Below are positions 2,474-29,412 of a stretch of 64,000 bases of DNA, one piece after another. Within the stretch, counting starts at the first letter, position 1. Every line of letters starts with the position of its first letter. Location: the NCBI GenBank assembly GCA_000004985.1, contig GG738899.1; one strand, 5' to 3'. The notes under the pieces were generated by a model. That model saw nothing but the letters and a program-made list of their open reading frames with translations, ran no database searches and was not told the origin of the DNA. Origin of the DNA: Naegleria gruberi. Taxonomy: Eukaryota. A program made the translations under genes and the position numbers.

Positions 2474-4807
2474 TTACCATAATCCAAAGCTAAAGACGTC
2501 TCGGTTGAGTATAGATGATGAGGTGTTTTGATTTGAATCCTCTGGGGTGGGCGTGTCTTCATCTACTTTGTGGATTCCAGAGAGAAAATCTTTTACACTA
2601 TGAAGTGAGAGTGTTCTCCTGTTATTGTTTGATTTTTCTGATTCACTTGAGGAAGTGCTGCTATCTTGTTGATGTTGTGAACGGTGGTCATCTTTGGAAT
2701 CTTTGGTTCCAAGAAATATTCCTTTCACTGATTTACCAACACTCAGTAATTGTCTATGTATCTCAATAACTGGATGGATTTTTACACTCCTCTGTTGGCC
2801 AAATATATCTTTTTTGAGGTTTAGTAGAGTTCTCACAAGTTTTTCAGAGTCAGGTCTATCTTTAGGTTCTAGAGAGAGCATTGATATGATGAGATTGGCA
2901 AATCCTTCATGATATTTGCTACACCGTTTTCTGATCAGCCCGTGGAATTGTTGTTGATCTTTCATGGCCATAATGTATGGTGAAAAATTGAGGATTTCAC
3001 ATCCAACAAGCTCTAGAAAAACTATTCCCATTGACCATATATCAGAGGAGTAAATATAATTCATGAATAAAGATGTAGGGGCTATTGGTTCCTTAGAATC
3101 CAACTCTGTTATATCTTTAACACCAATATGACACTCTGGTGATTGATATTTGATAGTACCTGCACTTGAGATTGTATCATTCAAATTTTTAGAGGTTAAT
3201 GATCTCAAATTATAAATTAAACCAAAATCTCCAATTTTACATTCTTTGAATTTTGAACTGAGTAAAATGTTCTTTGGTTTTATATCTCTGTGAAGAAGCC
3301 CATTCAAATGAAGATGATTTAGACCGGCAGACATTTGAATCATCAGAGACAGCAGGTGAGCCTCTTGAATTGTTTGGCCTTGATCTTTGTGTCCATTAAT
3401 GAATTGTTCTAAATCTCCATCATCCATGTATTCCATTACTAGACAGAGTGTAAATAGTGATGAGAATTCATTGTCTGATTTTGAAAAGTAAATGTCCTGT
3501 ATAGATATTAATTGAGGATAGCTGATTTTTCTGATTGGCCAAAATTCAACGAGGGCATCATTTGCATTATTGATATCGTCACAATTAATTTTCTTAATAC
3601 CAACTGTTACTCTATCGGATTTTCTTACAGCTTTGTACACTTTACCAAAAGATCCTCTTCCGACTTCTTCCAGAATTTCATAATGACTCTCTTCATACAG
3701 ATTTTCACTATTATTTTGTGGTAGATCAAAATTGCTGTCACATATGCTTGTCAGTTTTTCAGATGATGGTTTCTTCTTAAGGCCGGATAATATGAACGAG
3801 TCATCAAATGAAATTGTTTCGTAATCATGTAAGCTCTCTAAAGAATTATTTGGTGATATGTGGTGCTTCACACCCTCGAATTTTTGTGGTAATATTAATT
3901 TCATTCCTATTGTAACAACTCCTGTTTTATCTTTACCTCGTTTCAGAGATAGTTCAATCATATCCACAGATCTAGATCTAAAATCCATCAATCTGTTAAT
4001 ATCATACACAGCCTCTCCAATAAAGTTAACATGAGGTTTACATTTCATTATATAGTTGTGAAGCATTTCTGAAGTGGCAGAAATGTTATCCAATTGCATA
4101 GCAATTTGTGGTAGAATTTTCTTCGACTCCAACGATGAAGAATGTTCAAATACATAATGTGATTCATTACTATTATTACTAGCTGAATTGCAAATGGTCA
4201 TAACTTGTTGATATTCTGCCTCTGATAATTGGATTGGTAATATAACCTTCTCTCCTTTCCATTTGAATGTAAATCCATCAGAGAGAGGTGATTTTCTAAT
4301 TCGAGATGAATGGGCTACTACTTGTTTATATTCATCACCTAATAATTCTTCTTGTTCATCACTTCTTTTTACACTAAATGTTAAACAAGTATCAAATATC
4401 GAAGCACTAAAGTATTGAGTAAAACTCAAATCACTTGCAAGTGTTACAGTTCCAATACTAAATTCAATTCCAATATGATTCGGAGGTAAAATTAATGGTT
4501 GTTTGTTATTTTCCTCGATATCTTCTTCATCAGAATGATTATATTTATCACTAATTAAATTATCATTTTCCGTAATTAAATTATGTAACATTTCACTAAA
4601 TGATTTCCTTCTCGGATGTTCTTGTTGCTGTACTTTGAGAGTATTGTTATTATTATTCTGTACATTTGATTTTTCCTTGTTTCGATCATTACTATTATTA
4701 TTATTACTATCGGAAGATGATTGTGGTGGTGTAGTCGTTGGTGTTGGTGAGGAGGTTGATGAACTCTTGTCCAATCCCATAAACGACCTGAATCCACCAA
4801 AGAACAT
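2474..4807 (-). CDS. Ser/Thr protein kinase (777 aa) with a large N-terminal non-kinase region and a C-terminal kinase domain.
   Basis: Kinase subdomain motifs are present: GRGSFGKVYKAVRK...VGIKKI (Gly-loop and VAIK-like Lys), HRDIKPKNILL (catalytic loop), DFGL (DFG) and SDIWSMGIVFLEL (subdomain IX). Single uninterrupted ORF. Confidence 0.8.
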   Translation of the reverse strand: MFFGGFRSFMGLDKSSSTSSPTPTTTPPQSSSDSNNNNSNDRNKEKSNVQNNNNNTLKVQQQEHPRRKSFSEMLHNLITENDNLISDKYNHSDEEDIEENNKQPLILPPNHIGIEFSIGTVTLASDLSFTQYFSASIFDTCLTFSVKRSDEQEELLGDEYKQVVAHSSRIRKSPLSDGFTFKWKGEKVILPIQLSEAEYQQVMTICNSASNNSNESHYVFEHSSSLESKKILPQIAMQLDNISATSEMLHNYIMKCKPHVNFIGEAVYDINRLMDFRSRSVDMIELSLKRGKDKTGVVTIGMKLILPQKFEGVKHHISPNNSLESLHDYETISFDDSFILSGLKKKPSSEKLTSICDSNFDLPQNNSENLYEESHYEILEEVGRGSFGKVYKAVRKSDRVTVGIKKINCDDINNANDALVEFWPIRKISYPQLISIQDIYFSKSDNEFSSLFTLCLVMEYMDDGDLEQFINGHKDQGQTIQEAHLLSLMIQMSAGLNHLHLNGLLHRDIKPKNILLSSKFKECKIGDFGLIYNLRSLTSKNLNDTISSAGTIKYQSPECHIGVKDITELDSKEPIAPTSLFMNYIYSSDIWSMGIVFLELVGCEILNFSPYIMAMKDQQQFHGLIRKRCSKYHEGFANLIISMLSLEPKDRPDSEKLVRTLLNLKKDIFGQQRSVKIHPVIEIHRQLLSVGKSVKGIFLGTKDSKDDHRSQHQQDSSTSSSESEKSNNNRRTLSLHSVKDFLSGIHKVDEDTPTPEDSNQNTSSSILNRDVFSFGLW

Positions 4808-5013
4808 TTTTTATTCTTAAAATTAGCTGAGAAATGAACTTGTAGGTTTATCAGAAATGAATTGGATGATCTTGTTTAAATTGGATATATTTCTCTATGC
4901 AGTTGATCGAAATGTTCAGGCAACGTTTTCAATTCAATATTGAAAATGAATTACAAAATTCTTTATTATTTATTGATAATTTATTGAGCCGAAAGTTAAT
5001 GGTTTCGACTGCC

Positions 5014-5775
5014 TTAGTAGAAGAGTTTATTTGCAACAACATATTGTTCAGTGCTATTTGGTGCATATCCTAGATTACCTCCTTCGAATAAAATTTGGAA
5101 AGCAGCAATAGTTGCATCAAAATCAGAATTCAATTCTGAAACAACTTCATGAAATGAAATGCCTGGTTTCTTAGCAACAAGTTCATAGATAGACACTTCC
5201 AGAGTTTTTTGTTGTTGAACTTTTGGCACTTTCTTCCCTACAAGTGAACCATATTGAGAATGCAGAGATGCAACAATTACGTCCAATAAGTGAGTGGTAA
5301 ATTCATTGATATCCATAATTAGTGATAAACCTGTACCAACAATATATCTTGTTCCAGTTCTATTATCAATATTCAAAATACCATAAATTCTCAAAAAGAG
5401 TCCATTTTCAATAACACCACCACAAGCTTCAAACTTTTTCTCAGTATCAATTGCGTACAAAATTACGCTCATCCTTCCTGTACCATCATCAAGGAATAAA
5501 TTTAATTTTCGTTTCTCGGGTTCATTAGTAAATTTTACAATTTGTGCAACAAGAGTAACTTGTTCAATTCTTTTCTTCTTTGTCTTGCAGTCAATGACGA
5601 AATGATTGGTTTCTGGCATTTCGGCATGGATTAATTGTCTAATATTTACAGGTGTAATACCTCCTTTCTCGGAAGCACTTTCACTACTATTTACATGTGA
5701 TGTGTTATGTACCATGGATTGATCTACATCTTCACCACCATGCACATCACTTCCTCTAAAATCATGATCATCCAT
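5014..5775 (-). CDS. RPA2: Replication protein A 32-kDa subunit (RPA2)-like protein: S-rich N-terminus, OB fold, C-terminal winged helix.
   Basis: TPVNIRQLIHA...VTLVAQIVK...LFLDDGTGRMSVILY...ENGLFLRIYGILN follows the RPA32 OB-fold pattern (TPV.I.Q...V.iVG.i...lDDgTG.i). The C-terminal VSIYELVAKKPGISFHEVVSELN resembles the RPA32 wH domain. Confidence 0.6.
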   Translation of the reverse strand: MDDHDFRGSDVHGGEDVDQSMVHNTSHVNSSESASEKGGITPVNIRQLIHAEMPETNHFVIDCKTKKKRIEQVTLVAQIVKFTNEPEKRKLNLFLDDGTGRMSVILYAIDTEKKFEACGGVIENGLFLRIYGILNIDNRTGTRYIVGTGLSLIMDINEFTTHLLDVIVASLHSQYGSLVGKKVPKVQQQKTLEVSIYELVAKKPGISFHEVVSELNSDFDATIAAFQILFEGGNLGYAPNSTEQYVVANKLFY

Positions 5776-5939
5776 CTTGATTGCTGGGTATTTTTTTAAA
5801 TATTTGATGTTCTAAATTTAATGTTTTTCTATTCTTCTAAAAAATAGAAACAAAATTTCTAGTTTTATCTGGAAGACAAAAAACTATTGATTCATTACAG
5901 AAAATATGTCAAGTTAAATTAATAGTAATTACAATTAGT

Positions 5940-6605
5940 TTAATTCTTCTTATGATGAGAATCCTTTTCATATTCAAATTCAACCAATTCATTAGCACTG
6001 CAGTACATTTGAATAAAGTTCATCAATTGTTTACCAGCCCATGTTGGAACAAGAAGAGCCAAAGCAATAATCAACCAGAGTTGACTCAATTGATAGAAAT
6101 GAATGGCATATAAAAAGACATAGAACAATTCATTACCAACACACAAAATAGCCATGAATGTCTTGTTAGTATAATATAAAGCCAATAAGTAACTTCTGTC
6201 CCAATCAACATCCTTGTGACTAGCAGTACCAATAACCAAACTGACATACATACGGAACCAATGTGAAACAAAGTCCAAAATATTCAACAAGACAAAATAT
6301 GGAGTATAATTTGGATAAAAGTTAGAAAGAATGGTAACAAGAGCAGCAGTACTGAAACGATCAGTGACCATATCTAAAACAGCTCCGAATCTAGAACATT
6401 GATTATAATGACGAGCAGCAATACCATCCAAACCATCCAAAACAAAACTTGTTGTATAGATAACAATCACAGTTCCTGGATATGATTCATAAATAAAGAA
6501 AGATAAAAGTGAAAGGAAAACACGAAGATAACCAATCAAATTTGGAATATAAAAATAAATTTTGTAGGCCTCTGGGTTTCTTGGAGTAACTTTAGTAGCT
6601 GCCAT
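5940..6605 (-). CDS. CDIPT: CDP-diacylglycerol--inositol 3-phosphatidyltransferase (phosphatidylinositol synthase). The true ATG is at 6605 (MAATKV...); the ORF-track start at 6623 is an alternative-codon extension.
   Basis: CDP-alcohol phosphatidyltransferase signature D-G-x2-A-R-x8-G-x3-D-x3-D in LDGLDGIAARHYNQCSRFGAVLDMVTDR. The FGAVLDMVTDR stretch is characteristic of PI synthases. Multi-pass membrane protein. Confidence 0.8.
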   Translation of the reverse strand: MAATKVTPRNPEAYKIYFYIPNLIGYLRVFLSLLSFFIYESYPGTVIVIYTTSFVLDGLDGIAARHYNQCSRFGAVLDMVTDRFSTAALVTILSNFYPNYTPYFVLLNILDFVSHWFRMYVSLVIGTASHKDVDWDRSYLLALYYTNKTFMAILCVGNELFYVFLYAIHFYQLSQLWLIIALALLVPTWAGKQLMNFIQMYCSANELVEFEYEKDSHHKKN

Positions 6606-7023
6606 CTCTTTCCGAATCAACAAATAAATAATAATAATACTAGAAAAATCCGTTGTTGGATGATGAAAATATTTTTTCTTGTTGAAATTTTAAAAAATTC
6701 AAATCCAAATTTTTAAAAACAACGGAAAGTGAATCAAATTAGGCGAACAAAGCGGCACCGTTTTTTAACCCTAATATGTTGAACCAGCATTTAGATTAGG
6801 TTCAGTGTTCGTTTCGAATAGATTGGCTCAATTTCCAAGTTTACAATTTTACGGTATTGCTCTATCTCTTACCAAAAGGTTTTATTTATGAAATTAATGT
6901 CTATTTTACAGACATAAGAATATTATTTGTCTTTTATTGATTCGTTTTTCTAATAGAGGTTTCCACATTATTCGAAATGATTCACATTTAGAAGCACTGT
7001 CACTTGTCAACAATCCAAAAAAA

Positions 7024-8079
7024 ATGAGTTCAAAGGAAATGAAGATTGTCGTCGTTGGTGACGGTGCTGTTGGTAGGTGTTATTTTTACCTAGAATTGGA
7101 TTTGATAATTATTTCAATATATAGGCAAGACATGTTTACTATGGGTTTATGCTAATAACTCATTCCCAGAGACTTATGTTCCAACTGGTAAGTCTTTCTT
7201 ATATGATGATAAGATTCGAATAGAAGAATGATTAGTATTTGACAATTATAAAACAACAGTTTCGCTGGATGGTAGAACTGTAAAATTGGAATTATGGGAT
7301 ACTGGTATGTACACAAAGTTTTTTTGATCATTTTACGACGATGTAAATTATAGCTGGTCAGGAAGAGTAAGTTTTCGAATAGTGATGATGACGAGGAATA
7401 TATATTTTTATTGTATTATTATTATAATGATCGGGTGATGAAACTCTCTTTTTGGAATCAAATATTTGATCAACATGTTGATATGGTGATGAAACATTCA
7501 TGATGATGGATTCTATTGTTATTATTGTTCTTATTATTATTATATTGGAAAAATAACTAAAGATATGACCGTTTGCGTCCACTCTCATATCCTGGTACAC
7601 AAGTTTTCTTGATTTGCTTTTCAACAGTTGATGAAACTAGTTATGCTAACATTAGGTAGGTTTTTTATAATGACAAGATGATGACAATAATCTTCTACTA
7701 CTACTAAACTTTTATTATGATTCACATCAATAATAATAACATTTAAACAACAATTATTAACACAATACTTTAATATAATGATACAAAAACAATTAGAACT
7801 AAATGGTATCCAGAAGTTAATCATCACTCTGATGGTGTTCCAATTGTTCTTGTTGGTACAAAAGTTGATTTACGTGAGATGGGTGACAAATCACAAGGAG
7901 GTGACAATATTTCACCACAATTGGGTGAAAAACTAAAGGCAGAAATTAAAGCTATCAAATATGTTGAATGTTCTGCCAAGACACAACAAGGTGTTAAAAT
8001 GGTCTTTGATGAAGCCATTAGAGCTGTTCTTTTCCCAAGAAGTGGATCTGGAAAGAAATCAGGATGTGAATTATTGTAA
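7024..8079 (+). CDS. Rho-family small GTPase (Rac-like), 6 exons: 7024..7072, 7125..7187, 7236..7304, 7354..7366 (13-nt micro-exon), 7563..7655, 7797..8079. 570 nt = 189 aa plus stop; C-terminal CAAX box CELL.
   Basis: [12 protein letters not shown]|[20 protein letters not shown]|[23 protein letters not shown]|AGQE|[31 protein letters not shown]|[27 protein letters not shown]...[20 protein letters not shown]...CELL. Every junction is GT..AG and phase-consistent, and exon lengths sum to a multiple of 3. Anchored to ORFs 6937..7155 and 7879..8079. Confidence 0.8.
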
Positions 8080-8160
8080 ATTAATTTGCCTTTTTGTAGA
8101 TAATTGCTATTGTAAAGCAATAATGAATTTTATATATTATATTTAGTATTTGTTTCAATA

Positions 8161-8423
8161 GGATTGTAATTTTTGATAACCATTTCAGAGAATATGTCTA
8201 TTTCATCCCAATTTGAGTTTTCGACATTTTCTTCCTCTTGCAGTATCTTTGAAAGATTACTTTTGGAGGTTCTTCTTCTTCTTCTTGTGGTTCTGTATTC
8301 ACTTGACTCTGTGAAGAAATCTTCTTCGTCATCGTGTTAATCTTCCATACTATCAAATCCAAGACTCTTCTTCTTTGGAGATGGCTGAGGTTGTTTTGAA
8401 CAATTAAGTATGGATTTATTAGT
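8161..8423 (-). pseudogene. Degenerate partial duplicate of the 3' end (last ~80 codons, stop and 3' flank) of the SCYL1-like gene at 10414..12687.
   Basis: Blocks are near-identical to 10401..10870: ccatttcagagaa(c/t)atgtctatttcatcccaatttgagttttcgacattttcttcctcttgcagtatctttgaaagattac, then ...tccatactatcaaatccaagac(t/c)cttcttc... Internal deletions and an in-frame TAA interrupt it. The alt-frame motif RRRVLDLIVWK is shared by ORFs 8198..8461 and 10563..10904. Confidence 0.6.
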
Positions 8424-8469
8424 TGAACCACCAACCAAAACAACATCATCAATTTGTACACTGCATCTG

Positions 8470-8632
8470 TACCTGTACCTTATCTAAATATTCCCTACTT
8501 GAGGATCGTAAACACTTTTTTAGTATTCCAAAAGTTCAAGAAATGCTCAGAATTCTTTAATGGAAGGAATTGTGTAAATCAATCCAGATGAAGCAGTTGT
8601 TAATGGTGCTGCAGTTCAAGGTGTGTTTTAAT
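8470..8632 (+). pseudogene. Hsp70 (HSPA-family) gene fragment relic, frameshifted.
   Basis: Translations in shifting frames give ...[12 protein letters not shown] / FNGRELCKS / [15 protein letters not shown]-stop. This matches the highly conserved Hsp70 segment ...[39 protein letters not shown]. No start codon or upstream Hsp70 sequence is present. Confidence 0.5.
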
Positions 8633-8653
8633 TGGTAAATTCTCTTATCGATG

Positions 8654-10275
8654 TTACTCATTATGATTAGATGCACCATCTAGAAGAGATTCATTAATAC
8701 GATTGTTTTGAGATTCCACATTTCTCTTATTGGAAGAATCACTCAATTTTCCACATCTGAAACAAGATTGATAACAAATTTTCAATTCATCCAAACTAAA
8801 TTCCATATATAACAAGCCACTGACCACAATAAATAAAATAAAATTCAGAATGGCACCAATAATTGGTTCAGTAAATTCAGCTCCAGTGTTCTGAGATTCT
8901 TGAACCAGATAAATTATTACCATTAATATAAAACATGGAAATACAATGGAAACAAATATCAAAAAGTTGGCATACTAAAATTGTTAATTATTTCCATATA
9001 TATATTTAACTCACCCCAGTGTTCCAAATATTAATATCTGATACTTTTTTCATAGCTCTAGCGATAATTAATCCAACAATTAAAAATACTTTTTCATTAT
9101 TGTTATGATTTACTTTCTAAAAAAGTATTACTTACTAAATATAGATAATAACAACCAAAGTGCAATAAATATTTTGACATATTGAAAAGCAAATGACTGA
9201 ATAATAGCTATTGATACAATCCCTAATACTGAGAATATAATTGGTATAGCATAAATCAATATACTATAAATGGTTTTTCTCTTATTGACAACGCCAAAAC
9301 TATTCGTGACCAATTTCCTAACCAGGAGAATAAAGCCAAAAATAAGAAAATATGAAAATAATCTGACACTATTACCACAATGGTTCTCTGGTAATTCTCA
9401 AATCTAAGGATGTATCTATACAAATAAGTTCCAAATTCACTACAAATCCTAAAAGTAATATATAAAATAGTAATAATTGGATATAAGGATCTTAATTTGA
9501 CACACTGAATGAGTTTAGGAATGAAAACTAAGAAGAATGCAATAATTAATTGACCAAATGTCAATATTATTGAAATGATACCAACTGCAAAAGTGAGATA
9601 TTGCTTATTTGGAGAATAAAAACATTTTTCAAAGAATGCACTGTCATTAATAGAGCAAGCACAAAAGTATGAAAATGGATATCTCAAAATTCCATTCACA
9701 TTTGATTGATTAAATAAAAAAGGAAATCCAAAAATACTGTCTCCACAATAAAGCAATCTTGTTGGAAAATAATTAATCATCTCATGTAACATAACCAAAT
9801 TAGGATTACATTCTTCTCGTTTCACCATTTTCCTATAAATTAAACTGTTATTTCCACAATATTGACATGCATTAATCCATTCCTCTGCTGAACTATCCAA
9901 TCTTCTCATCATATCAAGAGTAGCAGCATTTGCATTACACAACACTTCAAAGCAAGTTTGATTTAAAGTTTTTTCTAATTTTCCAATTTTTTCACAAATA
10001 TTAATTCTCGGAGATTGATAAATTAATTTGGTTGATTCGGAATCAATGGTTGGTCCTTTGGTTATTACTAGAGAGACATTGCTGGTGTATGAAACATCGA
10101 GACAATTGAAATTATTTGGAAGAAACTGATCTAAATCATATTTCGGAAAGAGAAACATTCGCCAAACGTTTTCAATTGTGCAGTTGGAGAAGAATACTTT
10201 CTCTGAACCATGGACTGTCAGATGGCAGGAAATGAGAAGGAATGCCGAGAGGATAAAGAGATACCTTGTTGACAT
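8654..10275 (-). CDS. Seven-transmembrane receptor-like membrane protein with a signal peptide and a Cys-rich ~190-aa N-terminal ectodomain. Proposed exons 9311..10275, 9136..9263, 9015..9088, 8654..8974, with introns of 47, 47 and 40 bp.
   Basis: MSTRYLFILSAFLLISCHLTVHG (signal), many Cys in the ectodomain, then 7 hydrophobic helices spread across ORFs 9256..10275, 9128..9313 and 8654..8962. Those ORFs lie in different frames and can only be joined by short GT..AG introns. The first donor (GTCACG) is weak, so the exon model is tentative. Confidence 0.45.
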
Positions 10276-10413
10276 TTTTTTACTTTGAGCTTTTCAAACT
10301 CCGAACTAATTTGAATTAGTTAGAAAAGAGATGGAAGATAAATAGATTCATATTATTTCTTATTCTTAAATTCGGAAAGAATATGACAAAATATCCTCAG
10401 CAGCTTGAGGTCT

Positions 10414-13203
10414 TTAATTTTTGATATCCATTTCAGAGAACATGTCTATTTCATCCCAATTTGAGTTTTCGACATTTTCTTCCTCTTGCAGTATCTTTGA
10501 AAGATTACTTTCTTTTGGAGGTTCTTCTTCTTGTGGTGCAGTTGGCAGAGTTGGTTCTGGTTTCACTTGACTCTGTGTAATCTTTGATTTTGGAGGTTTT
10601 CTTTTACCACCTCTTGATGATGGGCTAGCTGTTGTTTTTGTTGTTCCAGCAGTTGGTTTTGGTGAAGTTTGGACAGTTTTAGGTGTGCTTTCTTGTTCCT
10701 TTGAGAAATCTTTGAAGAAATCTTCTTCCTCATCGTGTGGTGTGTATGAATCATCTTCCATACTATCAAATCCAAGACCCTTCTTCTTCTTTTGGGAGGA
10801 GCTGGCTGAACTTGGAGATGGTTGAGGGTTGTTTTGCACAATTGTTGTTTCTTGTGGAATAGCTTTAACTGTTTCAACAACTTGAACAGACTTTTCTTCA
10901 TCATCTGACCAATTCTTCCATTCCTCGTCTTCGCTGTGGGCTGGACTAGAATGGGATTGAGTCTGTTGAGCTACAGCTTCAATAGACTTGTTGGATGCTG
11001 TTTTGATTAATTGTAGTCTTGATTGTTGTTGAGATTCTACTTGAGCTTCAGGTGTCTTCTCTTGTGGTTGAGGATTGAATTCTTTCTTGACAACTGCTGG
11101 GGAAGACGGTGGAGTATTTTCAGTAGAACGTCCACCTTCATCTATTGAAGATTTTGATTGTTGATCACTTTCAGAGAATTGGATTACATGTTTTGGAGAT
11201 TGACCAGAGAAGATTTCAACTCGAACAAGTTCTTTTTGAGATTGTGGAGGGAAGAATGGTGTAACATTTGTAATACCATCATTTGCTGAGGTAATCATTC
11301 CTAAATTACATCGGGAAAGATCAGATTCTGACAAGTACTCTAATGCAACTTTCATTACTTGGGTAGCTTTTGATCTGACTTGTTCCTTTTCATGGAGAGT
11401 TAATGGAAGTACAGGTTTCATTACATAGGTCATGAGTTCTCTTGGATCAAATCTCGACATGTGAATTAAAATTACATTCAAAGCGTGTACTTTGAGTTCT
11501 GAAATATCCTTATCAAACAAGTTAGAGTGTAAAGCTGTTAAAATTATTCCCTTATTGGCTCCAGGTAAATTCCATAATTCCAAAAGGCATAAAAGAGCAT
11601 GAGATCTCAAAGCAATAACACTTTCAATGGCTTTTTCCTTATCAACTTCTTGGCCAATTCTAGGGAATGAGTTTTGTACAGCATAATGATGAAGGGAAGG
11701 AAGGAATTGATTATTAATAATTTCTATTCCAGTGGTGGATTGAGTAGATTGATCAAGTTTGGAAAGGTACTTGGAGAAGGCTACACAGGCATTCATAGTG
11801 AACATGACAAGTTCATTACTAGAGTCTTTGATGGCCTTCATTATTTCTGGAATAACTTCTGAAATGGCTACACTAGGAGGAATTTGATTTTGATAATATT
11901 CCAAGGTTTGAAGTATCCTAATTCTTAAACTATAATTCTTACTAATATAACATTTACGAATAAAAGTAAGAATGTGCTCATCGTAATCCTTGCCAGATAA
12001 GATACCATCAATTCCTCTCTTGGATGACTCTTTAGCTGAGAACAAGTGAGCCAAAAAGGTACCTGAGGCAGGCTCTGTAACGAACGGAAGAGTTGTCATT
12101 CTTGGCAAAATTCTCTTTTTAAAAAGTGAAAGAGACAATTTGTTAACTTGGCTCTTGAGTTCCTTAAAGAAAGATTCCTTTTCAGATGCCTTTTTCAATC
12201 TCATATCATCAAAGAATAGCATAATGCTACAGAGTGGATCTTGTTCAAAAAGTTTCAGTTTTAAAAAGCTGGCAAAGGTAGCTCTTGATTGAGGTTCACT
12301 TTCAAGTGCCTTTGACATCCAAAATTTGATGGCTGGTAATTTCAAAAAAGATTGATAGTTAACTTCGTTAGGAACGTTATTCTTCTTGCAGCTTTCTTCA
12401 ATTTCTGCGAATATCTTGGATACTAATTTTTCAAAAGCATATACATCTCTACATGTACTTGTATATTTTTGGAATTTCTTCATTCCTTCTTCTGGAGTAA
12501 TAGTTTCAGAGTATCTAATTTCCTTAGTATTTTCGTAAAAATCCTTATCAATATTACTAAATTCCATAGCAAATTGGAAATCACCAAGCATCCACCTCAT
12601 TTGTTTATCTTTTGTCACATAAACAGAATCCAAATGAACATTATTAAATGTAATTTGGCATTGATCGTTCAAAAAATTGAGAGCACTCTGAAAAAGATGT
12701 GAGATGACTATTCAAACTAAAATACTCACAGATATTTGAAGTAATCCCAACAAAATTTCCGACATTTCCAATGATGGCAAAACAGATCTGAGGGGTACAA
12801 CAGGCTCTGTAGCTATATAAAAGTGTGAATTATTCAACTCAATGTCATCAACATATTTCAAAATTGATGGATGTCTAAGAGTTTTTAAAAACTTCATTCC
12901 TCTTCTAGCACACTCAATAATTGTTTTTGCAGGTTCCTCATCCAATGGTGAAATTTTAGTTTTTGGCTTTTCCGCAGTTTGATTATCATTTTCATTCTTT
13001 TGTTGTCTCAAAATCTTTGGTAAATCTTTAGCTTGTTTATCCGTTAATTCAAATTCAAAAACAGAAACATTTCTATTATCACTTTGAACATTCTTCTGAA
13101 AAACACCATCATATAATTTCCAAAATTTAAATCTCTTATCCGTATCAACCAATGGAACTGGTTGGAGGGATGAAAACTTTTGTGAGACGTTAGAATTTCC
13201 CAT
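10414..13203 (-). CDS. SCYL1: SCY1-like pseudokinase (N-terminal kinase-like protein, SCYL1-type). Exon 1 12730..13203 (ATG 13203), intron 12688..12729 (GTGAGT...CAG, 42 bp), exon 2 10414..12687; about 915 aa.
   Basis: The N-terminal exon ...VSVFEFEL...GMKFLKTLRHPSILKYVDDIELNNSHFYIATEPVVPL...SEILLGLLQIS joins SALNFLNDQCQITFNNVHLDSVYVTKDKQMRWMLGDFQFAMEF. This matches the SCYL1 pattern (RLKTLRHPNILAYIDGLE...VTEAVTPL...[33 protein letters not shown]). It is followed by a HEAT-like region and an acidic S/T/P-rich tail. The splice is phase-consistent with both ORF-track frames. Confidence 0.75.
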
Positions 13204-13450
13204 CTTGTTGATTGTGATGATGAAAAAAGCCTTCGGAAAAGTAAGCTTTCACCTTGTTGGTGTTTTATTTTTTTAAATAATAATAAAATTAATCGTTGTT
13301 ACAGTATGATGTAATATTGCTTCTAATTAGAAGGTTACAGTTATTAGAAATGTTGTTGTTTGATTGTAAAATAATAATCAAAATACTATAGTAATTTTAA
13401 TTAAATATATTAAATTATTAAAAAATTTGTCGCAATATTAAATTGGATCC

Positions 13451-18138: not shown

Positions 18139-21100
18139 ATGCCAGAAGTAATTACCAGCAGCACTGTTGGTAGAACAGCTTTCGGTCCCAACCTTTCCTT
18201 GTTGAAGGTAAGTTATTACTCATTTACATCTCGCAGTAATTTTTTTTTGACTTTCTAATAACAAACAAACTAAGAACTTCAAAATGAACATGTTGAAAAT
18301 AATATATAGGGTGGTACAATCTCTCAAACAATTGTTGGTTTAATAGTTTCTGCTTCTGTTGTTGCCTCTCTCGTTGTTACCATTGTAATGATTAGTGTTG
18401 GTGCAGGTGTTCAAAATCCAACATTGAAACCAGACTATTATGAACTTTACAAAAAGACACCATCAAAACTCTATCCTCTTCTCAATGATATTGATCCAAG
18501 AGGTGGTAATTTGACAATTTTAAATGTTACTCAACCATTACATGGTAAAGCTGTGTTATCTTCTGCTGGCATGGTTATTTATACAAGTATTGGTTCTTAT
18601 GCTGGTAATGATACTTTCGAATATTCGGTTACTAATGGATGGACAACTGCGACTGAACATGTTTATCTTAGTATTTTGAATCGTGCTCCAGAAGTAGTTG
18701 ACATGACATATACTGTTAATAAGAATTCAAAGAAAAATTCATTTGATTTATTTGGATATGAAAGTGAAATGGGTGCTAAAATTAAGGATATTGACGGTGA
18801 TGATTTATCTATTACTGACATTATTCTAGTTTCTCCTAATGTTGGTAGTTTAATCTCATTCGATCAAAATTACTTGTACTATACTCCTGCTTATGGTTTT
18901 AATAATATTGAATTACTTAACTATACAATCTCAGATGGTTATGCCAATGTTTCAGGTGTCATTACTATTAATGTTGCCAATGATAAACCAACAGCTGAAC
19001 CTGACACTTATACCATTACAAAGAATGCTTTGGGTACTTTTAATATTCTAGATAATGATTTTGATATTAATGGTGATAACATTTCAATTACCACTGCTGG
19101 TTTAGGTTCATCTGGTGTTGTTTTAATTTCCTCTGATAATTCAAATATCGAATATATTCCAAAGCCATTTGTAGCTCCATATACTGATGCTTTTGAATAT
19201 GAAATCACTGATGGAGCTTTGACAAGTTCTAGTTATGTTTTTGTAAAGATTGTCAATTCTCCTCCAACTGTTTCTGATAAGGTTTTCAATGTTGCAAAGA
19301 ATTCAAAGAATAATCTTTTAGATTTGACATTCTCTGATCCAGATGTACTTGATACTGTTACCTTGACAGCTGTTAGTAAGCTTGCTCGTGGTAATTCCTC
19401 ATTGTCTGTTACTAGCTCAATGGCATCTGTTTATTATCCAACAGGTGACTTTTTACAAGTTAAGAAGAATTTGTACTCTCTTGTTTATACACCAGATCAA
19501 GGTGTTATTTATACTGATTCCTTTAAGGTCAAAGTTAGTGATGGTGTGGATGTTGCTTATGCCACCATTACTATTAATGTAGTTCCTTCTCCTCCTGTTC
19601 CTGTTAATGATACTGTCACTTGTCAAAAGAATGGACAAGTCTCTCTTGATGTTATCAGTAATGATTATAGTGCTTCTGGTGATGTTTTGAAATTGAATTT
19701 TGCATCATCTACTTCCAATTTTGGTGGTAAACTTGTTAAGATTGATGATAATAATGTAAAATATGAGCCAGCTAAAGGATTCCTTGGTCAAGATGAAGCT
19801 CAATACATTGTTATTAACACTAACACTGATGGATCTAGTGAAGGTACTTTCAATAGAGAGGGATATGTTCTTGTTAATGTTGTGAACTCACCTCCAGTTG
19901 CTGTTCCATTAACTTTGACAGTTTCAAAGGGTTTGACAAGTGCTCTTAATTTATTAAGAGATAGTTATGATCCAAATGGTGATTCTATTAATTATAATAG
20001 TATTGCTAAGAGTACTTATGGAGTTTCATTGTCCTTCACTTCTGGTAATGCAAATGTTAATTATGCTGCCTTGTCATCTGTCTACGTTGATTATGTTGAC
20101 TTTACTGTTGTTGATATTGATGGAGCTATTTCACAAGTTGCTACAGCTACCATTAACGTTGTTAATGATGCTCCTGTTCCAGTTGATGATACTGCTGCTG
20201 TTTCTTGGAATAGAAGTATTGTCATTGATGTTTTGGCAAATGACAAGGATGTTAATGGTGATTCTCTAAGTGTTAAGAGTGTTAGTTATACTTCTAATAA
20301 TGGTGCAACTGTTACTGTTCATCAAGGTGGTAAAACTGTTCTCTACACTCCAAAGGATGGATTTGTAGGAAATGATACCTTCTCCTATGTTTGTTTTGAT
20401 GGAATTGATTCATCTGTCACTTCTGGATTGGTGACAGTTGTTGTTAGTAATACTGCTCCATCTACTTCTCCAGTTACTGTTAGTGTTCATTGGAGAGATT
20501 CTTCAGTTATTATTCCAGTATTGACCTATGCCAGTGATATTGATGGTGATTCTCTTCATGTTGAATCTTTCACACAAGGATCAAAGGGATCTGTTTCACG
20601 TGTTACACTTACTGATGGTACAGATGGTTTGCAATTTACTACTTCTGGGTCAAATAACTATGTTGGAAGTGATTCTTTTACTTTTGTTGTTAGTGATTAT
20701 GGTAAATCAAGTGTTGGAAGTGTCAACATTCAAATTACTGACACTGCTCCTGTTGCCAATGCTGATTCATTCTCAATGCATTGGAGATCAACTGATAATG
20801 TTTTATCTGTTCTTGCTAATGATGTCGATGCTAATATTGATCCAATTACTGTCAAATCATTTACTAAACCACAAGGTTTTACTGGAACACTTGTCAATGT
20901 TAATTCTCATTTGACATTTACACCAAGTGCTTCAAGTGTTGGTACTCAAACATTTACTTACACTGCTACTGATGGTCCATCAACAAGTAATGATGCTACT
21001 GTCACATTAACTGTTACCAATAAGGATATTCCACAAGATAAGACAATTTCCAAGACTGTTCACTGGTCAACTCAATCAACTGGTACTACTATTACCATTT

Positions 21101-24100
21101 TCTCAAGTGCCAATCCAGTTGATACTGATGGTGATTCATTGAGTATTTCTTCTACTCTTGTTTCTCCTTCAAGTGGTTCAATTACAATTTCCAATTCTGA
21201 TATTCCAAGTGTTGTTTACAAACAAAATACTGGATTCCTTGGAACTGATACTTTCAAGATTCAAATCTCTGATGGTGCTGCTACTGCTATTGTTACCATT
21301 TCTGTTACTGTTTATGATAATGCTCCATTGTCTAATGATATTTCTGAAAATAGACATTTTACTGAAGTTAGTAATGGATATACTAAGAATGCAATTTCAT
21401 TCTTCAATGTTACTGATATCGATTCTCAAGATAGTGTCACTGTTAAGGATGCTACTGTTGGATCTTGTGGTTCTGTCTCAAAGACTTCTTCAACTGTCAC
21501 ATTCACAAGTAATAAGGGAAGTGTTGGTGTTTGTACTGTAACTATCACATTTACTGATGGTCTATTGAATTCTGTATCCAAGTGGAATGTCAATGTTCAA
21601 AATCAAGATCCTTCTGCCGCACCAATTAGCACTACCGTTCACTGGAGTAAGAGTCAAGCTATTATTGACATTATGTCAACTTTGTCTGATGCTGATAATG
21701 ATGCCTTGTCTTATTCAGTTTCATCTTATGATTCCACATTCGGTAGCCCATCTATCAATTCTGATAAGGCTCTCGTATGGACTCTTCCACAAACACCAAA
21801 ATTAGGAACAACTCAAATTGTAATTTCATTCACAGATGGATGGGTCAGTAAGACTGCTTCTTATCCATTGATTGTTCAAAACGTTGCACCAACTGCAGTT
21901 GCAAAGACAATTTCATCAAAGTGGTCTGCATGTCTTTCTGGTATTACTATTGATATTTTGAGTGAATGCTCAGATAATGACGGAGATAGTTTGTCATTTG
22001 ACAGTACTACGCCAATTGTTACTGCTCCAGCTCAAGGAAGTGCTTCAATTGTTTCTTCAAAGGTTTATTACAAACAATCAACTGCTTCTGTTGGTTCTTA
22101 TTCCATTACTTACAAGATTACTGATGGTATTCAAACTTCATCAAACTCTATTACTGTCAATTGTGAAGATAATGCTCCTGTTGCTAATGCTGATTCAATT
22201 ACTGTTAATTGGAATACCTCTGATGTCGATATTACTATTTTGTCTAACGATATTGATTCAGATAATGATATTCTTTCTGTCACTAATCTTTCAGCTGTCA
22301 GTGAAGGTTCTTTAACTAATTTAGGTACTTTTGTTAAATATACTTTGAAGAAACCACCAACCCTTTCTGACAAGACATTCACCTATAAGGCATTCGACGG
22401 AGCTCTCTATTCCTCTGCTGCAACTGTCACTGTCAAAGTTGTCAATGCCAACAAGCCACAAATTAGTGATCAAAGTACAACTGCTCACTGGAGAACTGTC
22501 AAGGATGGTGTTTCATACACTGTCTATGATACTCTTACCGATGCTGATGGTGATTATTATTCACTTTCATTTGGTAGTGGTTCAAGTGCTTATTGTTCAC
22601 TTATTGACCTTTCGAATGGTATTAAGGGTGTTAAATATACTAGAAATGCATTCGATTCCACTGATTCTTGTAAAGTAGTTCTCTCTGATGGATTCAGTAC
22701 AAGTGCTGCCACATTAACAACCAACTCTTACAATAATGTTCCAGTTGCTGCCAACTTTACTTTAGATTATTCTGGTGGTAATATTCAATATGGTATTTCA
22801 ATTGATGTTTTGTCATCTGCTACAGATGCTGATATTCAAGATGTTCCATTCCTTTCCATTTTAAGTGTTGGAAATTCCAAATTATATGGTAGTGAAGCTG
22901 CAAATATTGTAAATGGACAAGTTTTCTATTTCCCAGATCAATCATTAGTTAAAGCATTGGGTACTGATACTGTTGCTTATACTATTAGTGATGGTTTATC
23001 AACATCTATTGGTTATCTCACTATTAACATCAAGTCAACTTCTCCATCCAGTACTGAACAATATTACAATGTTCATTTTAGATATTCAAGTGTTGGTTAT
23101 GTTTTCACACCATTGACAAAGATTGCAGATGCCACTAAACTTGATACTACTGTTGTTCAAGGAAGTGAACCAAATCAAGGTGGTTCAGTTGTTGTTTCTA
23201 GTGTTGATGAAAAGACAGTTACTTACAAACCATCTGGTTCCTATTTAGGTAATGAAATTTTCAAGTTAAAGTATTATACTGCTAGTGGTAGTAGTGATAT
23301 TACTTTTACAATGAATATTTATGATACTGCTCCAATTGCTCAATCACTTTCTGGTTCAGTTCATTTTGGTAAATCAACAACATTCAATTTAACTGCTTCA
23401 ACTTCAGATGCTGATCCATTGGATGTCAATAATTTGTCATTCTCAATTACTGGTCAACCATCTCAAGGATCTTTGAGTGTTTCATCAAATATTGCCACTT
23501 ATACTGCATCATCAACTGTTGGAACCTATTCTGGTATTTACAGAGTTTCAGATTCTATGAAATCTTCTACTGGTTCTATTACTTTGACTGTAACTAATAC
23601 TGTTCCTACTTCACAAACTAAAACCATTTCAGTTCCTTGGAGAACTTTCAAGGCAGGTTTTAATATTGATGTCTTGAATTTAGCACCAGCTGATTTTGAT
23701 AATGATGGAGATGAGTTGAGTTTGGTTTCAATTGCTCTTCAACCATCAGTTGGTTCAGTAACTAAATTGGATAGTAAGAGAGTTAGTATTGTTGGTTCAG
23801 GAAACTTTGTTGGTTCACTTACATTCAAATACATTGTTAGTGATGGTGCCTCAAATGGTCAAGTCACAACCACAGTTAACTTGAATGTTTACAACACTGC
23901 TCCAGTTGGTATTCCAGATAAGCTCTCTACCCACTGGAATGTTGCCTCAAAGACATTGAATGTTATTGCCAATGACACTGATGCTGAATCAGATCCTTTA
24001 ACTGTCACATCCGTTTATGGATCTTTAGCTTCAACTGCTCCAACTTTCACTTCTGATAGTATTGTCTATTATCCAAAGAATGCTCCATCAACAGATACAG

Positions 24101-27100: not shown

Positions 27101-29412
27101 CAACTGTCTATGATTATACTTATAGTTACTCAATTAGTAGAGCTTCTAATGATTATGTTACATTTGATTATGTTAGTTTATCATCCTCTGATGATCCAGA
27201 TGCTTCTGACTCAATTGTATTGAGTAGTATTTCAAGTGTTGGTACATGTACAACTAGTTCTATCAGTAGTTTGTCAATTACTAGTGATAACCAAATCAAA
27301 TTCTTGAGAAATCCATCATTCATTGGAAGTTGTTCATTCTCTTTGGTTGTTTCTGATAGTGATTTGAGAAATCCAATCTCTAAAACTGCAAAAATTACAA
27401 TCAATGCCATTTCTTCTCCACCAGTTGCTGTCAATGATGCTGTTTCTACAACCTATAACACATATATTGATATTCCAGTTTCCACATTACTTGGAAACGA
27501 TTATGATTCACTTGGTGGTACATTCTCATTCACTGGTATTAATTGCCCAACAGGTGATTCAACTTATTGTACAGCAGGCACTCCAACTATTCTCAATCCA
27601 TCTGATCCTGCAAATACAAGAATCATCAGAGTTCAACCAATTAAGGGATCTTGTAATTCTCAAAAATTCGTTTATGGTATCAAATCTGATTCTGATTCAA
27701 CAACTGCCACAGCTATTGTTACAGTTTCTTATACCAAATGTACATGTTCTTTGAATATGGATATTGTATTTGTTTTGGATGGTAGTTCATCTATTGATGC
27801 AGGAAATTGGATTAACATGCAAAACTTTGCATCCAATTTAACTGTTGGATTTGGTTCAAACATTTCACCAACTGCCACCAAGATTGGTATCATTCAATTC
27901 TCTACAACAACTGTAACTCACTTGGATTTGAAAGATGGTACTTCCAAGACAGCTGTTCTTAATGCCATTTCATCAGCTGGTCAACTCAAATCCAGTACCA
28001 ACTCAATTTTAGGTATTAACAATGCTGTTTCAATGGTTTTAAGTCAAGGTAGAAAGGATATCACTAGAAAACTCTTAATTCACATTACAGATGGTATGTC
28101 CAATTTACCTTGTGGTATGGGAGCTTGTCGTGCCATGTATGGTAGTGATAAGTCATTATATGGATCTGTTCCTAATTATTGTAAGTCACCTCGTTTCCCA
28201 GGTACTGATGCAACAATATGCTCATGGAATGAACCACTCAGTAGATGTAATCCTTGTTCTGATGCTACTCTTAGATCAACTGATTTGAATTCTTGGACAG
28301 TTGGAGGTGCTTCAAATCCAGAAAAATCAACTTATGGATCTATTTGGAATTGGAGACAATTAGTTGTAGGTATTGGTGATGGTTTGAGTTCTGGGTATGG
28401 ACAACTTCAAATTCAAAAGATGAATTACGATCCAAACAATTTAATTGTTGTCGATTGGTCTGATTTGAGCTCTGTTTATCAAACTGTTATTGATAATAGT
28501 TGTAATCTTGTCGATTCCACTCAAACCAACGTTCTTGTTCCACTTTCAAGTTCTGGATATTCTATTCAATATCTTGGAAAGACATTGTCCAAATCAAGTT
28601 ACCTTAATTATGAAGCAACCATTTCAACATTCACTTATCGTGTTAGTGTCTCTTCATCAGCACCTGCTTTACAAAGATTTACCTTAGGATTACAACCTGG
28701 TTACAATCAAGATAACTTTGTAAATTATGATCCATACTTCCCAGTTTTCATTGGTCAAGACACTACCACTAATTTGAATGGTTTCACTTTCTTATCACTT
28801 CCAAATTCATATACAATTGCAGCTGGTTCATCAGATACCTATACATTGAGTATTGCTGGTGATATTCCTGAAGGTGTTATTACTTATGGTATGTCGGGTG
28901 GTTCACAATACACACAAGGAACTGTTAAGGGACCAAGTGGAGTGATCAACTCAACCACAGTTGCTCTTCCACCAAATATTAATTACGGTGATGATTCAAG
29001 TTATAGAACTACCTATTGTTCCTCAACCAAATGTTATTTCTTTACCAAGATGAATTATGCCTATCGTATTGAAGCAATGAGTAAGATTTGTAAATATTGG
29101 TCTGCCAATGCAACACTAGTTCAAATTCAATCATCCACTGAAAAGACCACACTCATCAATAATGTTTTACCTTACGATGAGAGTGCTACCTTCTTCTTAG
29201 GTACTAAGGATTCCGATATTGCAGTTGGATCAACAACTACATGGCAAGATGGTACATCCATGTCCTCCTATACAAATTATCAAAGCAAACAACCTGGTTC
29301 CTACACTATTATTTATGCTTCATATAATGCTAATTCTCCAACTGGTACTTGGTGGAAGGGAGGTAGTTATGATACCAACACTCAATATTTACTTTGTCAA
29401 TTTAAGAAATAA
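18139..29412 (+). CDS. Giant type-II membrane adhesin-like protein (~3,720 aa). Exon 1 18139..18207, intron 18208..18309, exon 2 18310..29412. Architecture: TM anchor, about 28 tandem cadherin-like Ca-binding repeats, a DUF3494 (ice-binding-like) beta-helix, vWA domain, C-type lectin domain.
   Basis: MPEVITSSTVGRTAFGPNLSLLK|GGTISQTIVGLIVSASVVASLVVTIVMISVG is the TM segment. It is followed by ~95-100-aa repeats, each ending V-x-N-x-A-P-(V/T)-A (VVNDAPVPVDD, VSNTAPSTSP, VYNTAPVGIPD, ITNNAPSATP...) and containing D-x-D-G-D-S-L. The DUF3494-like stretch is at ~25440..26070; vWA has DIVFVLDGSSSID (MIDAS); the CTLD has KCYFF...WQDG...QP...WWKGG...CQF. The single 11.1-kb ORF is anchored to ORF 18388..29412. 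Confidence 0.8.

What the first reader, a model, noticed from the sequence alone, without database searches (positions are those of the whole stretch)
8161..8640. Gene-fragment junkyard: relic of the SCYL1 3' end plus a frameshifted Hsp70 fragment between Rac and the 7TM gene
8161..8423 (minus strand) is a decayed copy of the last ~80 codons, stop codon and 3' flank of the SCYL1-like gene 2 kb away. It has long near-identical blocks, internal deletions and an in-frame stop. Immediately after it, 8470..8632 (plus strand) encodes in broken frames ...[35 protein letters not shown], the signature segment of Hsp70 ([34 protein letters not shown]). Neither fragment has a start codon or promoter. Together they mark a breakpoint-repair or segmental-duplication scar. 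The same event may have delivered the SCYL1 3' flank, which would help date local rearrangements.
Basis: seen in the sequence. Interest (0 to 1): 0.55.

Follow-up and report, generated by a model that had tools for sequence, protein, structure and literature searches.

The report
Insertion scar beside SCYL1 in Naegleria
The two gene fragments are real, dead leftovers of a Naegleria gruberi-specific event that put about 2 kb of foreign DNA (a membrane-protein gene plus scraps of Hsp70) into the tail of a SCYL1-like gene and duplicated that tail; this is an ordinary rearrangement scar, not a new functional element.

Summary
The window is Naegleria gruberi.

- **SCYL1 relic.** 8166-8405 (minus) is a decayed direct-repeat copy of the last 430 nt of the SCYL1-like gene NAEGRDRAFT_81290 (10414-10843). 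Aligned columns are 95.7% identical. The relic has six deletions, one insertion, an in-frame stop, a frameshift, and its old stop codon mutated to TAC.
- **Hsp70 fragment.** 8522-8672 (plus) is a multiply frameshifted cytosolic-type Hsp70 fragment.
- **Synteny.** In N. lovaniensis, N. fowleri and a third Naegleria contig, SCYL1 and the Rac gene converge tail to tail with only 13-54 nt between them. There is no 7TM gene and no Hsp70 scrap there.
- **Reading.** The relic sits 86 nt from the Rac stop, so it occupies the ancestral position of the SCYL1 3' end. About 2 kb (Hsp70 scraps plus a 3-exon 7TM gene) was inserted in the N. gruberi lineage, flanked by a ~430-nt duplication of the target. 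The gene-side copy stayed functional and the Rac-side copy decayed.
- **Mechanism.** Inferred only: template switching or break repair with filler DNA. No transposon hallmarks were found.

Ordinary in kind; modest interest.

The parts
7024..8079 (+). Rac/Rho-family GTPase gene with several introns, ending ...CELL*. This is the left anchor of the ancestral convergent gene pair.
   Evidence: Sequence read. The C-terminal 89 aa are 82-85% identical to the Ras-family gene next to SCYL1 in N. lovaniensis and N. fowleri.
8080..8165 (.). Ancestral Rac-SCYL1 intergenic spacer, 86 nt.
   Evidence: The equivalent spacer is 53-54 nt in L001 and L002 and about 13 nt in L005. The motif TTGTAgATAATTgC next to the Rac stop is shared with L001.
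8166..8405 (-). Decayed Rac-side copy of the SCYL1-like 3' end (the relic). It has 6 deletions, 1 insertion, an in-frame stop, a frameshift, and its stop codon changed from TAA to TAC.
   Evidence: The M-to-I and D-to-V changes fall at residues conserved in the other Naegleria sequences.
8406..8420 (.). 15-nt junction filler (AAGTATGGATTTATT on the plus strand) between the SCYL1 relic and the inverted Hsp70 piece. Origin unresolved.
   Evidence: Alignment. It is not homologous to the parent. Any Hsp70 resemblance is not significant (my own inspection).
8421..8461 (-). Inverted Hsp70 piece encoding VQIDDVVLVGGST (Pfam HSP70 profile about 326-338).
   Evidence: tblastn. Adding it raises the Pfam score from 39.3 to 64.1 bits with a contiguous profile range.
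8462..8521 (.). Spacer of unknown origin between the two Hsp70 pieces. It ends in ttttttag, which may be a remnant of an intron 3' end or may be chance.
   Evidence: Adding its minus-strand translation gives no extension of the Hsp70 match.
8522..8672 (+). Forward Hsp70 piece, (S)[42 protein letters not shown].LSL. It has at least 4 frameshifts, stops and about an 8-codon deletion. Its last 19 nt lie antisense under the final codons and stop of the 7TM reading frame.
   Evidence: The best database matches to a repaired peptide are cytosolic Hsc70-type fragments. The stretch 8633-8672 is supported by only about 6 bits.
8654..10275 (-). The payload gene: a 3-exon multi-pass membrane (7TM-like) gene. 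Introns are at 9089-9135 and 8975-9014. There is one 1-nt frameshift in a T-run at about 9295-9299. The repaired product is 511 aa.
   Evidence: It is 35% identical over 440 aa to N. gruberi NAEGRDRAFT_76488 (513 aa). No protein with 50% identity or more exists in public sets.
10276..10413 (.). 7TM upstream region, which now also serves as the new 3' flank of SCYL1. It contains the hairpin CCTCAGCAGCTTGAGG (10395-10410) at the junction.
   Evidence: It shows no homology to the relic's flank beyond about 6 nt.
10414..10843 (-). Gene-side, functional copy of the duplicated segment: the last 142 codons plus stop of the SCYL1-like gene.
10414..13209 (-). SCYL1-like pseudokinase gene NAEGRDRAFT_81290 (main ORF 10414-12672 plus upstream exon(s) to about 13209).
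   Evidence: 100% match to the N. gruberi protein; orthologues are 61-63% identical in other Naegleria. tblastx collinearity with L001.

Best explanation
The region is a non-functional scar of one insertion event in the Naegleria gruberi lineage.

**Ancestral state.** The SCYL1-like gene and the Rac gene lay tail to tail, a few dozen bases apart.

**The event.** About 2 kb of DNA from elsewhere was joined in at the 3' end of SCYL1. It consists of a complete 7TM-family gene with its upstream region, two short scraps of a cytosolic Hsp70 gene (one of them inverted), and two short fillers of 15 and 60 nt. The last ~430 nt of the SCYL1 coding sequence ended up on both sides of the insert.

**Fate of the two copies.**
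- The copy still attached to the gene body (10414-10843) kept the conserved C-terminal motif and stayed under selection.
- The copy stranded next to Rac (8166-8405) lost 196 nt through deletions, picked up a stop and a frameshift, and lost its stop codon.

**Mechanism (inferred, not shown).** I favour a single replicative template-switching or break-repair event of the MMBIR/FoSTeS or filler-DNA type. Synthesis would leave SCYL1 at its stop codon, copy the 7TM gene, copy two Hsp70 stretches in opposite orientations, then re-enter SCYL1 430 nt upstream and copy its tail a second time.

**Status of the payload.** The 7TM gene has only one frameshift in about 1.5 kb. The relics carry about 3 indels per 100 nt. 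So the payload was, or still is, under selection. The fragments themselves do nothing.
For: **Shown**
- Direct-repeat homology of 8166-8405 with 10414-10843: 95.7% identity, 7 indels.
- Disabling lesions in the relic, and relic-specific changes at residues conserved across Naegleria.
- Empty site in relatives: SCYL1 and Rac converge with 53-54 nt between them in N. lovaniensis L001 and N. fowleri L002/L003, and about 13 nt in L005. No 7TM or Hsp70 homology occurs anywhere in those loci.
- The relic lies 86 nt from the Rac stop, the ancestral position.
- The Hsp70 identity of both pieces and their contiguity in the Pfam profile, 326-338 inverted and 339-394 forward.
- The 7TM gene is complete from signal peptide to C-terminus, with GT-AG introns and a single frameshift.
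- No terminal inverted repeats at the insert ends and no RNA family match.

**Inferred**
- That it was a single event.
- The template-switching mechanism.
- Past or present selection on the 7TM gene.
Against: - The rest of the N. gruberi genome could not be reached. The Hsp70 parent and the donor locus of the 7TM gene are therefore unknown, and junction microhomology, the hallmark of template switching, could not be examined.
- No near-identical donor copy of the 7TM gene exists in any public protein set. The move may have been non-duplicative, or the donor may be unannotated.
- The Hsp70 scraps look more decayed than the SCYL1 relic. That would also fit their being older than the duplication, for example already dead when moved.
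- A staggered break with fill-in, a two-step history, or single-crossover integration of a circular DNA would all give the same final layout.
Confidence: 0.7

Rival explanations
1. Two or more separate events. First came a small tandem duplication of the SCYL1 3' end. Later the 7TM gene, and separately the Hsp70 scraps, were inserted between the two copies.
For: The final layout is the same as under the single-event model. The Hsp70 pieces have at least 4 frameshifts in 150 nt and seem at least as decayed as the relic, so their ages could differ.
Against: It needs several independent hits in the same few hundred bases. The duplication boundaries coincide exactly with the insert boundaries (8405/8406 and about 10407-10413).
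Confidence: 0.17
2. The insertion is ancestral to Naegleria and was lost in the N. fowleri, N. lovaniensis and L005 lineages by recombination between the two direct repeats. That would restore a clean SCYL1-Rac pair.
For: Recombination between direct repeats would excise the insert precisely. Only three outgroup lineages were sampled.
Against: The repeats are 95.7% identical at the DNA level. SCYL1 proteins of these species are only 61-63% identical to the N. gruberi protein. A duplication that old would be unrecognisable in a neutrally evolving copy. No 7TM orthologue above 37% identity exists anywhere.
Confidence: 0.03
3. A gene-fragment-capturing transposon (Pack-MULE-like, Helitron-like or similar) carried the Hsp70 scraps and the 7TM gene into the site.
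For: Mosaics of fragments from unrelated genes are typical of such elements. There is a 16-nt hairpin at one insert end (10395-10410).
Against: - No terminal inverted repeats bound 8406-10407.
- The ends do not read 5'-TC...CTRR-3' on either strand (sequence).
- A 430-nt flanking duplication is far longer than any transposon target-site duplication.
- No transposase is present, and no second copy occurs in the window.
Confidence: 0.05
4. The fragments are retained because they now do something, for example as the 3' UTR or terminator of Rac or the 7TM gene, or as a source of antisense RNA against SCYL1 or Hsp70.
For: They lie in a 575-nt tail-to-tail intergenic region that both neighbouring transcripts probably enter. 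The Hsp70 piece overlaps the 7TM stop codon.
Against: The pattern is rapid, deletion-biased decay with no preserved frame. The two Hsp70 pieces come from different parts of the gene, so they cannot pair into a hairpin. Nothing equivalent exists in relatives.
Confidence: 0.04
5. Assembly artefact, such as a collapsed or chimeric join of haplotypes.
For: The window has large N gaps and a 99.8% identical 1.5-kb duplicate next to gaps elsewhere.
Against: There are no Ns near 8000-10900. The relic differs from the parent by seven indels and sits in an orthologous flank. Misassembly does not create decayed copies.
Confidence: 0.01

Closest known systems
Duplicated (non-processed) pseudogene fragments at segmental-duplication or insertion boundaries
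   Same: A truncated copy of a nearby parent gene in the same orientation, carrying stops, frameshifts and deletions, and created by DNA-level duplication.
   Different: The copy is only 430 nt long. It forms one arm of a flanking duplication around an inserted gene, and it occupies the ancestral position. The 'parent' is the arm that stayed attached to the gene.
Complex rearrangements by replicative template switching (FoSTeS/MMBIR), and filler or templated insertions at double-strand-break repair junctions. Comparison is from general knowledge.
   Same: A patchwork of short segments from unrelated loci, one of them inverted; short unassignable fillers at the junctions; and a duplication where synthesis returns to the original template.
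   Different: Junction microhomology and the donor sequences could not be checked. The event is old enough that the pieces have decayed. It also carried a whole gene.
Transposon target-site duplications and gene-fragment capture (Pack-MULEs, Helitrons)
   Same: Direct repeats flank inserted DNA, the orthologous site is empty in relatives, and the insert holds a mosaic of gene fragments.
   Different: The duplication is 430 nt rather than 2-20 nt. No terminal repeats, Helitron termini or transposase were found.
Campbell-type (single-crossover) integration of a circular DNA carrying a stretch of homology
   Same: It would give exactly this layout: the homologous segment duplicated as direct repeats on either side of the rest of the circle.
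   Different: There is no evidence for a circular intermediate. This is purely a formal possibility.

Membership tests
Duplicated pseudogene fragment | Significant DNA homology to an intact parent gene | tested here: met
   E 4e-51, 7e-17 and 2e-5 for three collinear blocks; 95.7% identity in aligned columns.
Duplicated pseudogene fragment | Disabling lesions (premature stop, frameshift, truncation, no start codon) | tested here: met
   In-frame TAA, 4-nt and 1-nt frameshifting deletions, loss of 196 nt, and only the last third of one exon present.
Duplicated pseudogene fragment | Not expressed as a protein | not testable with these tools
Hsp70 (Pfam PF00012) | Scores above the curated family threshold | tested here: met
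   39.3 bits (forward piece alone), 64.1 bits (with the inverted piece) and 70 bits (with the 3' extension), against a gathering score of 20.6.
Hsp70 (Pfam PF00012) | Intact reading frame covering the ATPase and substrate-binding domains | tested here: not met
   Only profile positions 326-394 of 599 are present. They are split into two opposite orientations with at least 4 frameshifts. No other Hsp70 sequence occurs in the window.
Lineage-specific insertion with flanking duplication | Orthologous empty site in relatives | tested here: met
   SCYL1 and Rac converge with 13-54 nt between them in N. lovaniensis, N. fowleri and L005.
Lineage-specific insertion with flanking duplication | Direct repeats of target sequence immediately bounding the insert | tested here: met
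   8166-8405 and 10414-10843 have the same orientation, and homology ends at the insert edges.
Transposable-element insertion (TIR element, Helitron, Pack-MULE) | Terminal inverted repeats or Helitron 5'-TC/CTRR-3' termini at the insert ends | tested here: not met
   No inverted repeat pairs the two ends. The termini read AA.../...TTG on the plus strand and CA.../...CTT on the minus strand.
Transposable-element insertion (TIR element, Helitron, Pack-MULE) | Multiple copies of the element termini in the genome | not testable with these tools
There is no second copy in the window.
MMBIR/FoSTeS-type template-switch rearrangement | Several joined segments from different loci, including inverted ones, with a duplication at the return point | tested here: met
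   The layout runs: SCYL1 tail, 15-nt filler, Hsp70 (inverted), 60-nt filler, Hsp70 (forward), 7TM gene, SCYL1 tail.
MMBIR/FoSTeS-type template-switch rearrangement | Microhomology of 2-15 nt between donor and acceptor at each junction | not testable with these tools
   Donor sequences (the Hsp70 parent and the 7TM source locus) are unavailable. At most an AGG is shared at the 10408-10410 junction.
Processed (retro-copied) pseudogene, for the Hsp70 scraps | Poly(A) tract, a full 3' end of the mRNA, and absence of parental introns | tested here: inconclusive
   There is no A-tract and the fragment comes from mid-gene, which argues against a classical retrocopy. The intron positions of the parent gene are unknown.

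The most novel reading that the evidence does not exclude
The scar records a single replicative template-switching event that moved a working, lineage-restricted 7TM gene into the middle of a conserved convergent gene pair. It would have rescued the interrupted SCYL1 gene by re-copying its tail. The short mid-gene Hsp70 filler would have been templated from the very abundant Hsp70 transcript or its cDNA rather than from the gene. That would be a clear natural footprint of MMBIR-like, possibly RNA-templated, repair creating gene relocation in a heterolobosean.
Probability: 0.2. Interest if true: 0.45.

Novelty: new member of a known kind. Interest (0 to 1): 0.28.

Why it matters
- **Annotation.** 8166-8672 should be annotated as pseudogene fragments, not as genes or exons.
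- **SCYL1 3' end.** The N. gruberi SCYL1-like gene has a second-hand 3' end region and a new 3' flank.
- **An unannotated gene.** The scar flags a 7TM-family gene, absent from public protein sets, that arrived recently at this locus and carries a possible frameshift.
- **Genome evolution.** It is a clean, datable example of how a gene can be inserted between two tightly packed convergent genes without destroying either. The repeats have diverged 4.3%, and relatives provide the empty site. It also gives a direct look at the strongly deletion-biased decay of neutral DNA in Naegleria: 7 indels against 10 substitutions.
- **Limits.** It does not reveal a new kind of element or function.

Tried and rejected
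- **Fetching N. gruberi DNA outside the window.** Exact-protein look-ups for the kinase ORF, NAEGRDRAFT_81290 and NAEGRDRAFT_76488 all returned nothing. Neither the Hsp70 parent nor a donor locus could be located.
- **Searching for the Hsp70 parent protein.** A search with a repaired 54-aa peptide returned only short Hsp70 fragments from many organisms and no Naegleria entry. It confirms the family and the cytosolic type only.
- **Extending the inverted Hsp70 piece through the 8462-8521 spacer.** No gain in Pfam score and no extension of the profile match. Rejected.
- **Two 24-nt matches of the GGST region at 27770 and 43815.** These turned out to be a VWA-like DIVFVLDGSSS motif in a duplicated giant gene, not Hsp70.
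- **Transposon hypothesis.** No terminal inverted repeats or Helitron ends.
- **Non-coding RNA hypothesis.** No Rfam family match in 7900-10500 apart from one sub-threshold snoRNA hit inside the 7TM exon.
- **Tandem repeats.** Only a (TTC)n run in the relic.
- **More distant SCYL1 homologue (L006, 42% identity).** It lacks the Rac neighbour, so the adjacency is informative only within Naegleria.
- **Literature search.** Found nothing on this locus.
- **Overlap of the two Hsp70 pieces.** I considered that the 15-nt filler 8406-8420 is a decayed '(R)IPKV', so that the pieces overlap. By eye this is 13 of 19 columns with two gaps, which is not significant in AT-rich DNA. Not claimed.

Full report
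**Source and setting.** The window is eukaryotic, about 32% G+C, with GT-AG introns. The long minus-strand ORF 10414-12672 is 100% identical to the Naegleria gruberi protein NAEGRDRAFT_81290. Its next relatives are 61-63% identical proteins of N. lovaniensis and other Naegleria. More distant hits are named SCY1-like or PACE-1. Pfam itself does not recognise the ORF, so 'SCYL1-like' rests on those homologues. The local gene order is:
- a Rac/Rho-type GTPase gene (plus strand, about 7024-8079, ending CELL*);
- the flagged region;
- a 3-exon multi-pass membrane ('7TM') gene (minus strand, 8654-10275);
- the SCYL1-like gene (minus strand, stop at 10414-10416).

**Checking the SCYL1 relic.**
- The repeat finder and blastn both show that 8160-8405 matches the 3' end of the SCYL1-like gene in the same orientation. 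The collinear blocks reach E-values down to 4e-51.
- A gapped alignment of 8166-8405 (240 nt) with 10414-10843 (430 nt) gives 224 identities and 10 mismatches (95.7%). The relic has six deletions (1, 24, 12, 137, 18 and 4 nt) and one 6-nt insertion.
- Read in the parental frame, the relic has a TAA right after ...GLGFDSMED. It changes frame at the 4-nt deletion, and its old stop codon has become TAC.
- Two of its substitutions, M to I and D to V in ...WDEIDMFSEMDIKN, hit residues identical in N. lovaniensis, N. fowleri and a third Naegleria sequence. The changes therefore happened in the relic under relaxed constraint.
- Homology ends at 8405, not 8423. On the other side it ends within about 6 nt of the stop codon, so no real 3' flank was copied.

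**Checking the Hsp70 fragment.**
- Concatenating the raw frame pieces on the plus strand, without repairing any residue, gives [36 protein letters not shown]. This scores 39.3 bits (E 3e-10) against Pfam HSP70, profile positions 339-372.
- tblastn with an Hsp70 segment written from memory also picked up QIDDVVLVGGST on the opposite strand at 8456..8421.
- Putting that minus-strand piece in front raises the Pfam score to 64.1 bits, and the match becomes one continuous stretch, 326-372.
- So the fragment is broken exactly between ...GGST and (R)IPKVQ, and the upstream 13 codons are inverted.
- Downstream, 8633-8672 still reads [10 protein letters not shown].LSL in shifting frames. That extends the match to profile 394 but adds only about 6 bits, and I chose the frames, so I call this probable. 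If it is real, the last five codons and the stop of the 7TM reading frame (8654-8671) are the antisense of Hsp70-derived DNA.
- The 60-nt spacer between the two pieces is not recognisably Hsp70.
- A repaired peptide finds cytosolic Hsc70-type fragments best, up to 87-88% identity.
- There is no other Hsp70 sequence in the window.

**The decisive evidence: relatives.** I fetched the loci that encode the SCYL1 orthologues.
- In N. lovaniensis (L001), the SCYL1 gene is followed 53 nt later by a Ras-family gene on the opposite strand. That gene's C-terminus is 82-85% identical to the window's Rac.
- The same holds in L002/L003, with a 54-nt spacer. These belong to N. fowleri, because the protein clusters at 90% identity or more with FDP41_000643.
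- It also holds in a third Naegleria-like contig, L005, with a spacer of about 13 nt.
- None of these loci contains any 7TM-family or Hsp70 homology.
- A much more distant homologue (L006, 42% identity) lacks the Rac neighbour.

In N. gruberi the relic's former stop codon lies 86 nt from the Rac stop. A short motif next to the Rac stop is shared with N. lovaniensis. The relic therefore sits at the ancestral place of the SCYL1 3' end. Everything from 8406 to about 10410 is an insertion specific to the N. gruberi lineage, and the two SCYL1 tails are a duplication of the target flanking that insertion.

The alternative, an ancient insertion lost three times, is very unlikely. The repeats are 95.7% identical, while the SCYL1 proteins of the other Naegleria are only 61-63% identical to the N. 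gruberi protein.

**The payload.**
- The 7TM gene can be reconstructed as three exons with GT-AG introns of 47 and 40 nt. The product is 511 aa and aligns over 440 residues (35% identity, E 2e-88) with the 513-aa N. gruberi protein NAEGRDRAFT_76488.
- In the assembly it carries a single 1-nt frameshift in a T-run near 9295-9299. Four Ts are present where the reading frame calls for five.
- Neither this gene nor anything 50% identical or more is present in two very large protein collections. The family has only about 20 cluster representatives. The gene is therefore unannotated, and no recent donor copy is known.
- It has one indel in about 1.5 kb, against about 3 indels per 100 nt in the SCYL1 relic. 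This suggests the gene was under selection for most of the time since the event. That is an inference.

**Mechanism.**
- What is shown is the layout: Rac, ancestral spacer, SCYL1 tail (decayed), 15-nt filler, Hsp70 codons 326-338 inverted, 60-nt filler, Hsp70 codons 339-394 forward, 7TM gene with 138 nt of upstream DNA, then SCYL1 tail (intact) joined to the gene body.
- No terminal inverted repeats or Helitron-type ends bound the insert. A 430-nt flanking duplication is far beyond transposon target-site duplications.
- The patchwork of short segments from unrelated genes, one of them inverted, with small fillers and a duplication at the point of return, is what replicative template switching (MMBIR/FoSTeS) or break repair with filler DNA produces. 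That comparison is from general knowledge. I favour a single such event.
- A staggered break with fill-in, a two-step history, or single-crossover integration of a circular DNA carrying the SCYL1 segment would give the same end product. They cannot be separated without the donor sequences, which were out of reach.
- The conserved C-terminal motif NS(N/A)WDEIDMFS(E/Q)M(D/E)IK explains why only an event that left a complete tail on the gene would survive.

**Function.** None is indicated for the fragments. There is no preserved frame, no RNA family match, and no counterpart in relatives. They lie in a 575-nt tail-to-tail intergenic region and are probably crossed by the 3' UTRs of Rac and the 7TM gene. 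This could not be tested.

**Verdict.** This is a new example of a well-known kind of genomic scar. It is useful for annotation and as a small case study of gene insertion and deletion-biased decay in Naegleria, but it is not surprising to a specialist.

Noticed in passing
window 8654-10275 (minus), frameshift near 9295-9299: The 7TM-family gene is complete (3 exons; 511 aa once repaired) but has a 1-nt frameshift in a T-run. It is absent from public protein sets, and its closest relative is only 35-37% identical. It may be a very young pseudogene, or a live gene hidden by an assembly error.
   Followed up: partly
window 43599-45163 versus 27554-29118: A 1565-nt stretch next to the N runs (43548-43598 and 45164-59552) is 99.8% identical to the 3' part of the 3674-aa ORF 18388-29412, which has a VWA-like DIVFVLDGSSS motif. 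This is either a recent segmental duplication of a giant gene or a haplotype or assembly artefact.
   Followed up: partly
window 2474-6936 versus L001 1-2182: Relative to N. lovaniensis, the block Rac-SCYL1-168aa-RCC1-like is inverted with respect to the kinase gene (2474-4807) and the 253-aa gene (5014-5775). A further gene (5940-6623) lies between them in N. gruberi. This is a second rearrangement breakpoint, just upstream of Rac.
   Followed up: partly
window 10395-10410: A 16-nt hairpin, CCTCAGCAGCTTGAGG, lies exactly at the junction between the inserted DNA and the SCYL1 stop codon. It may serve as a 3'-end signal for SCYL1, be part of the junction history, or be chance.
   Followed up: no
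window 10417-10480; L001 12760-12837; L002 12130-12208; L005 3250-3325: The SCYL1-like proteins of four Naegleria lineages share an acidic tryptophan C-terminal motif, NS(N/A)WDEIDMFS(E/Q)M(D/E)IK. It may be a binding motif. It is the part that the duplication preserved.
   Followed up: no
L001 12838-12890, L002 12209-12262, L005 3326-3338: The convergent SCYL1 and Rac genes are separated by only 13-54 nt in other Naegleria. This implies overlapping or extremely short 3' UTRs.
   Followed up: no
L004 582-1871 and 2352-3818: A metagenome contig carries two tandem members of the same small 7TM family.
   Followed up: no
window 9858-9921 (minus): A sub-threshold Rfam hit to C/D-box snoRNA snR60/Z15 (24.9 bits against a gathering score of 41, E 0.42) lies inside the first 7TM exon. 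It is probably chance.
   Followed up: no
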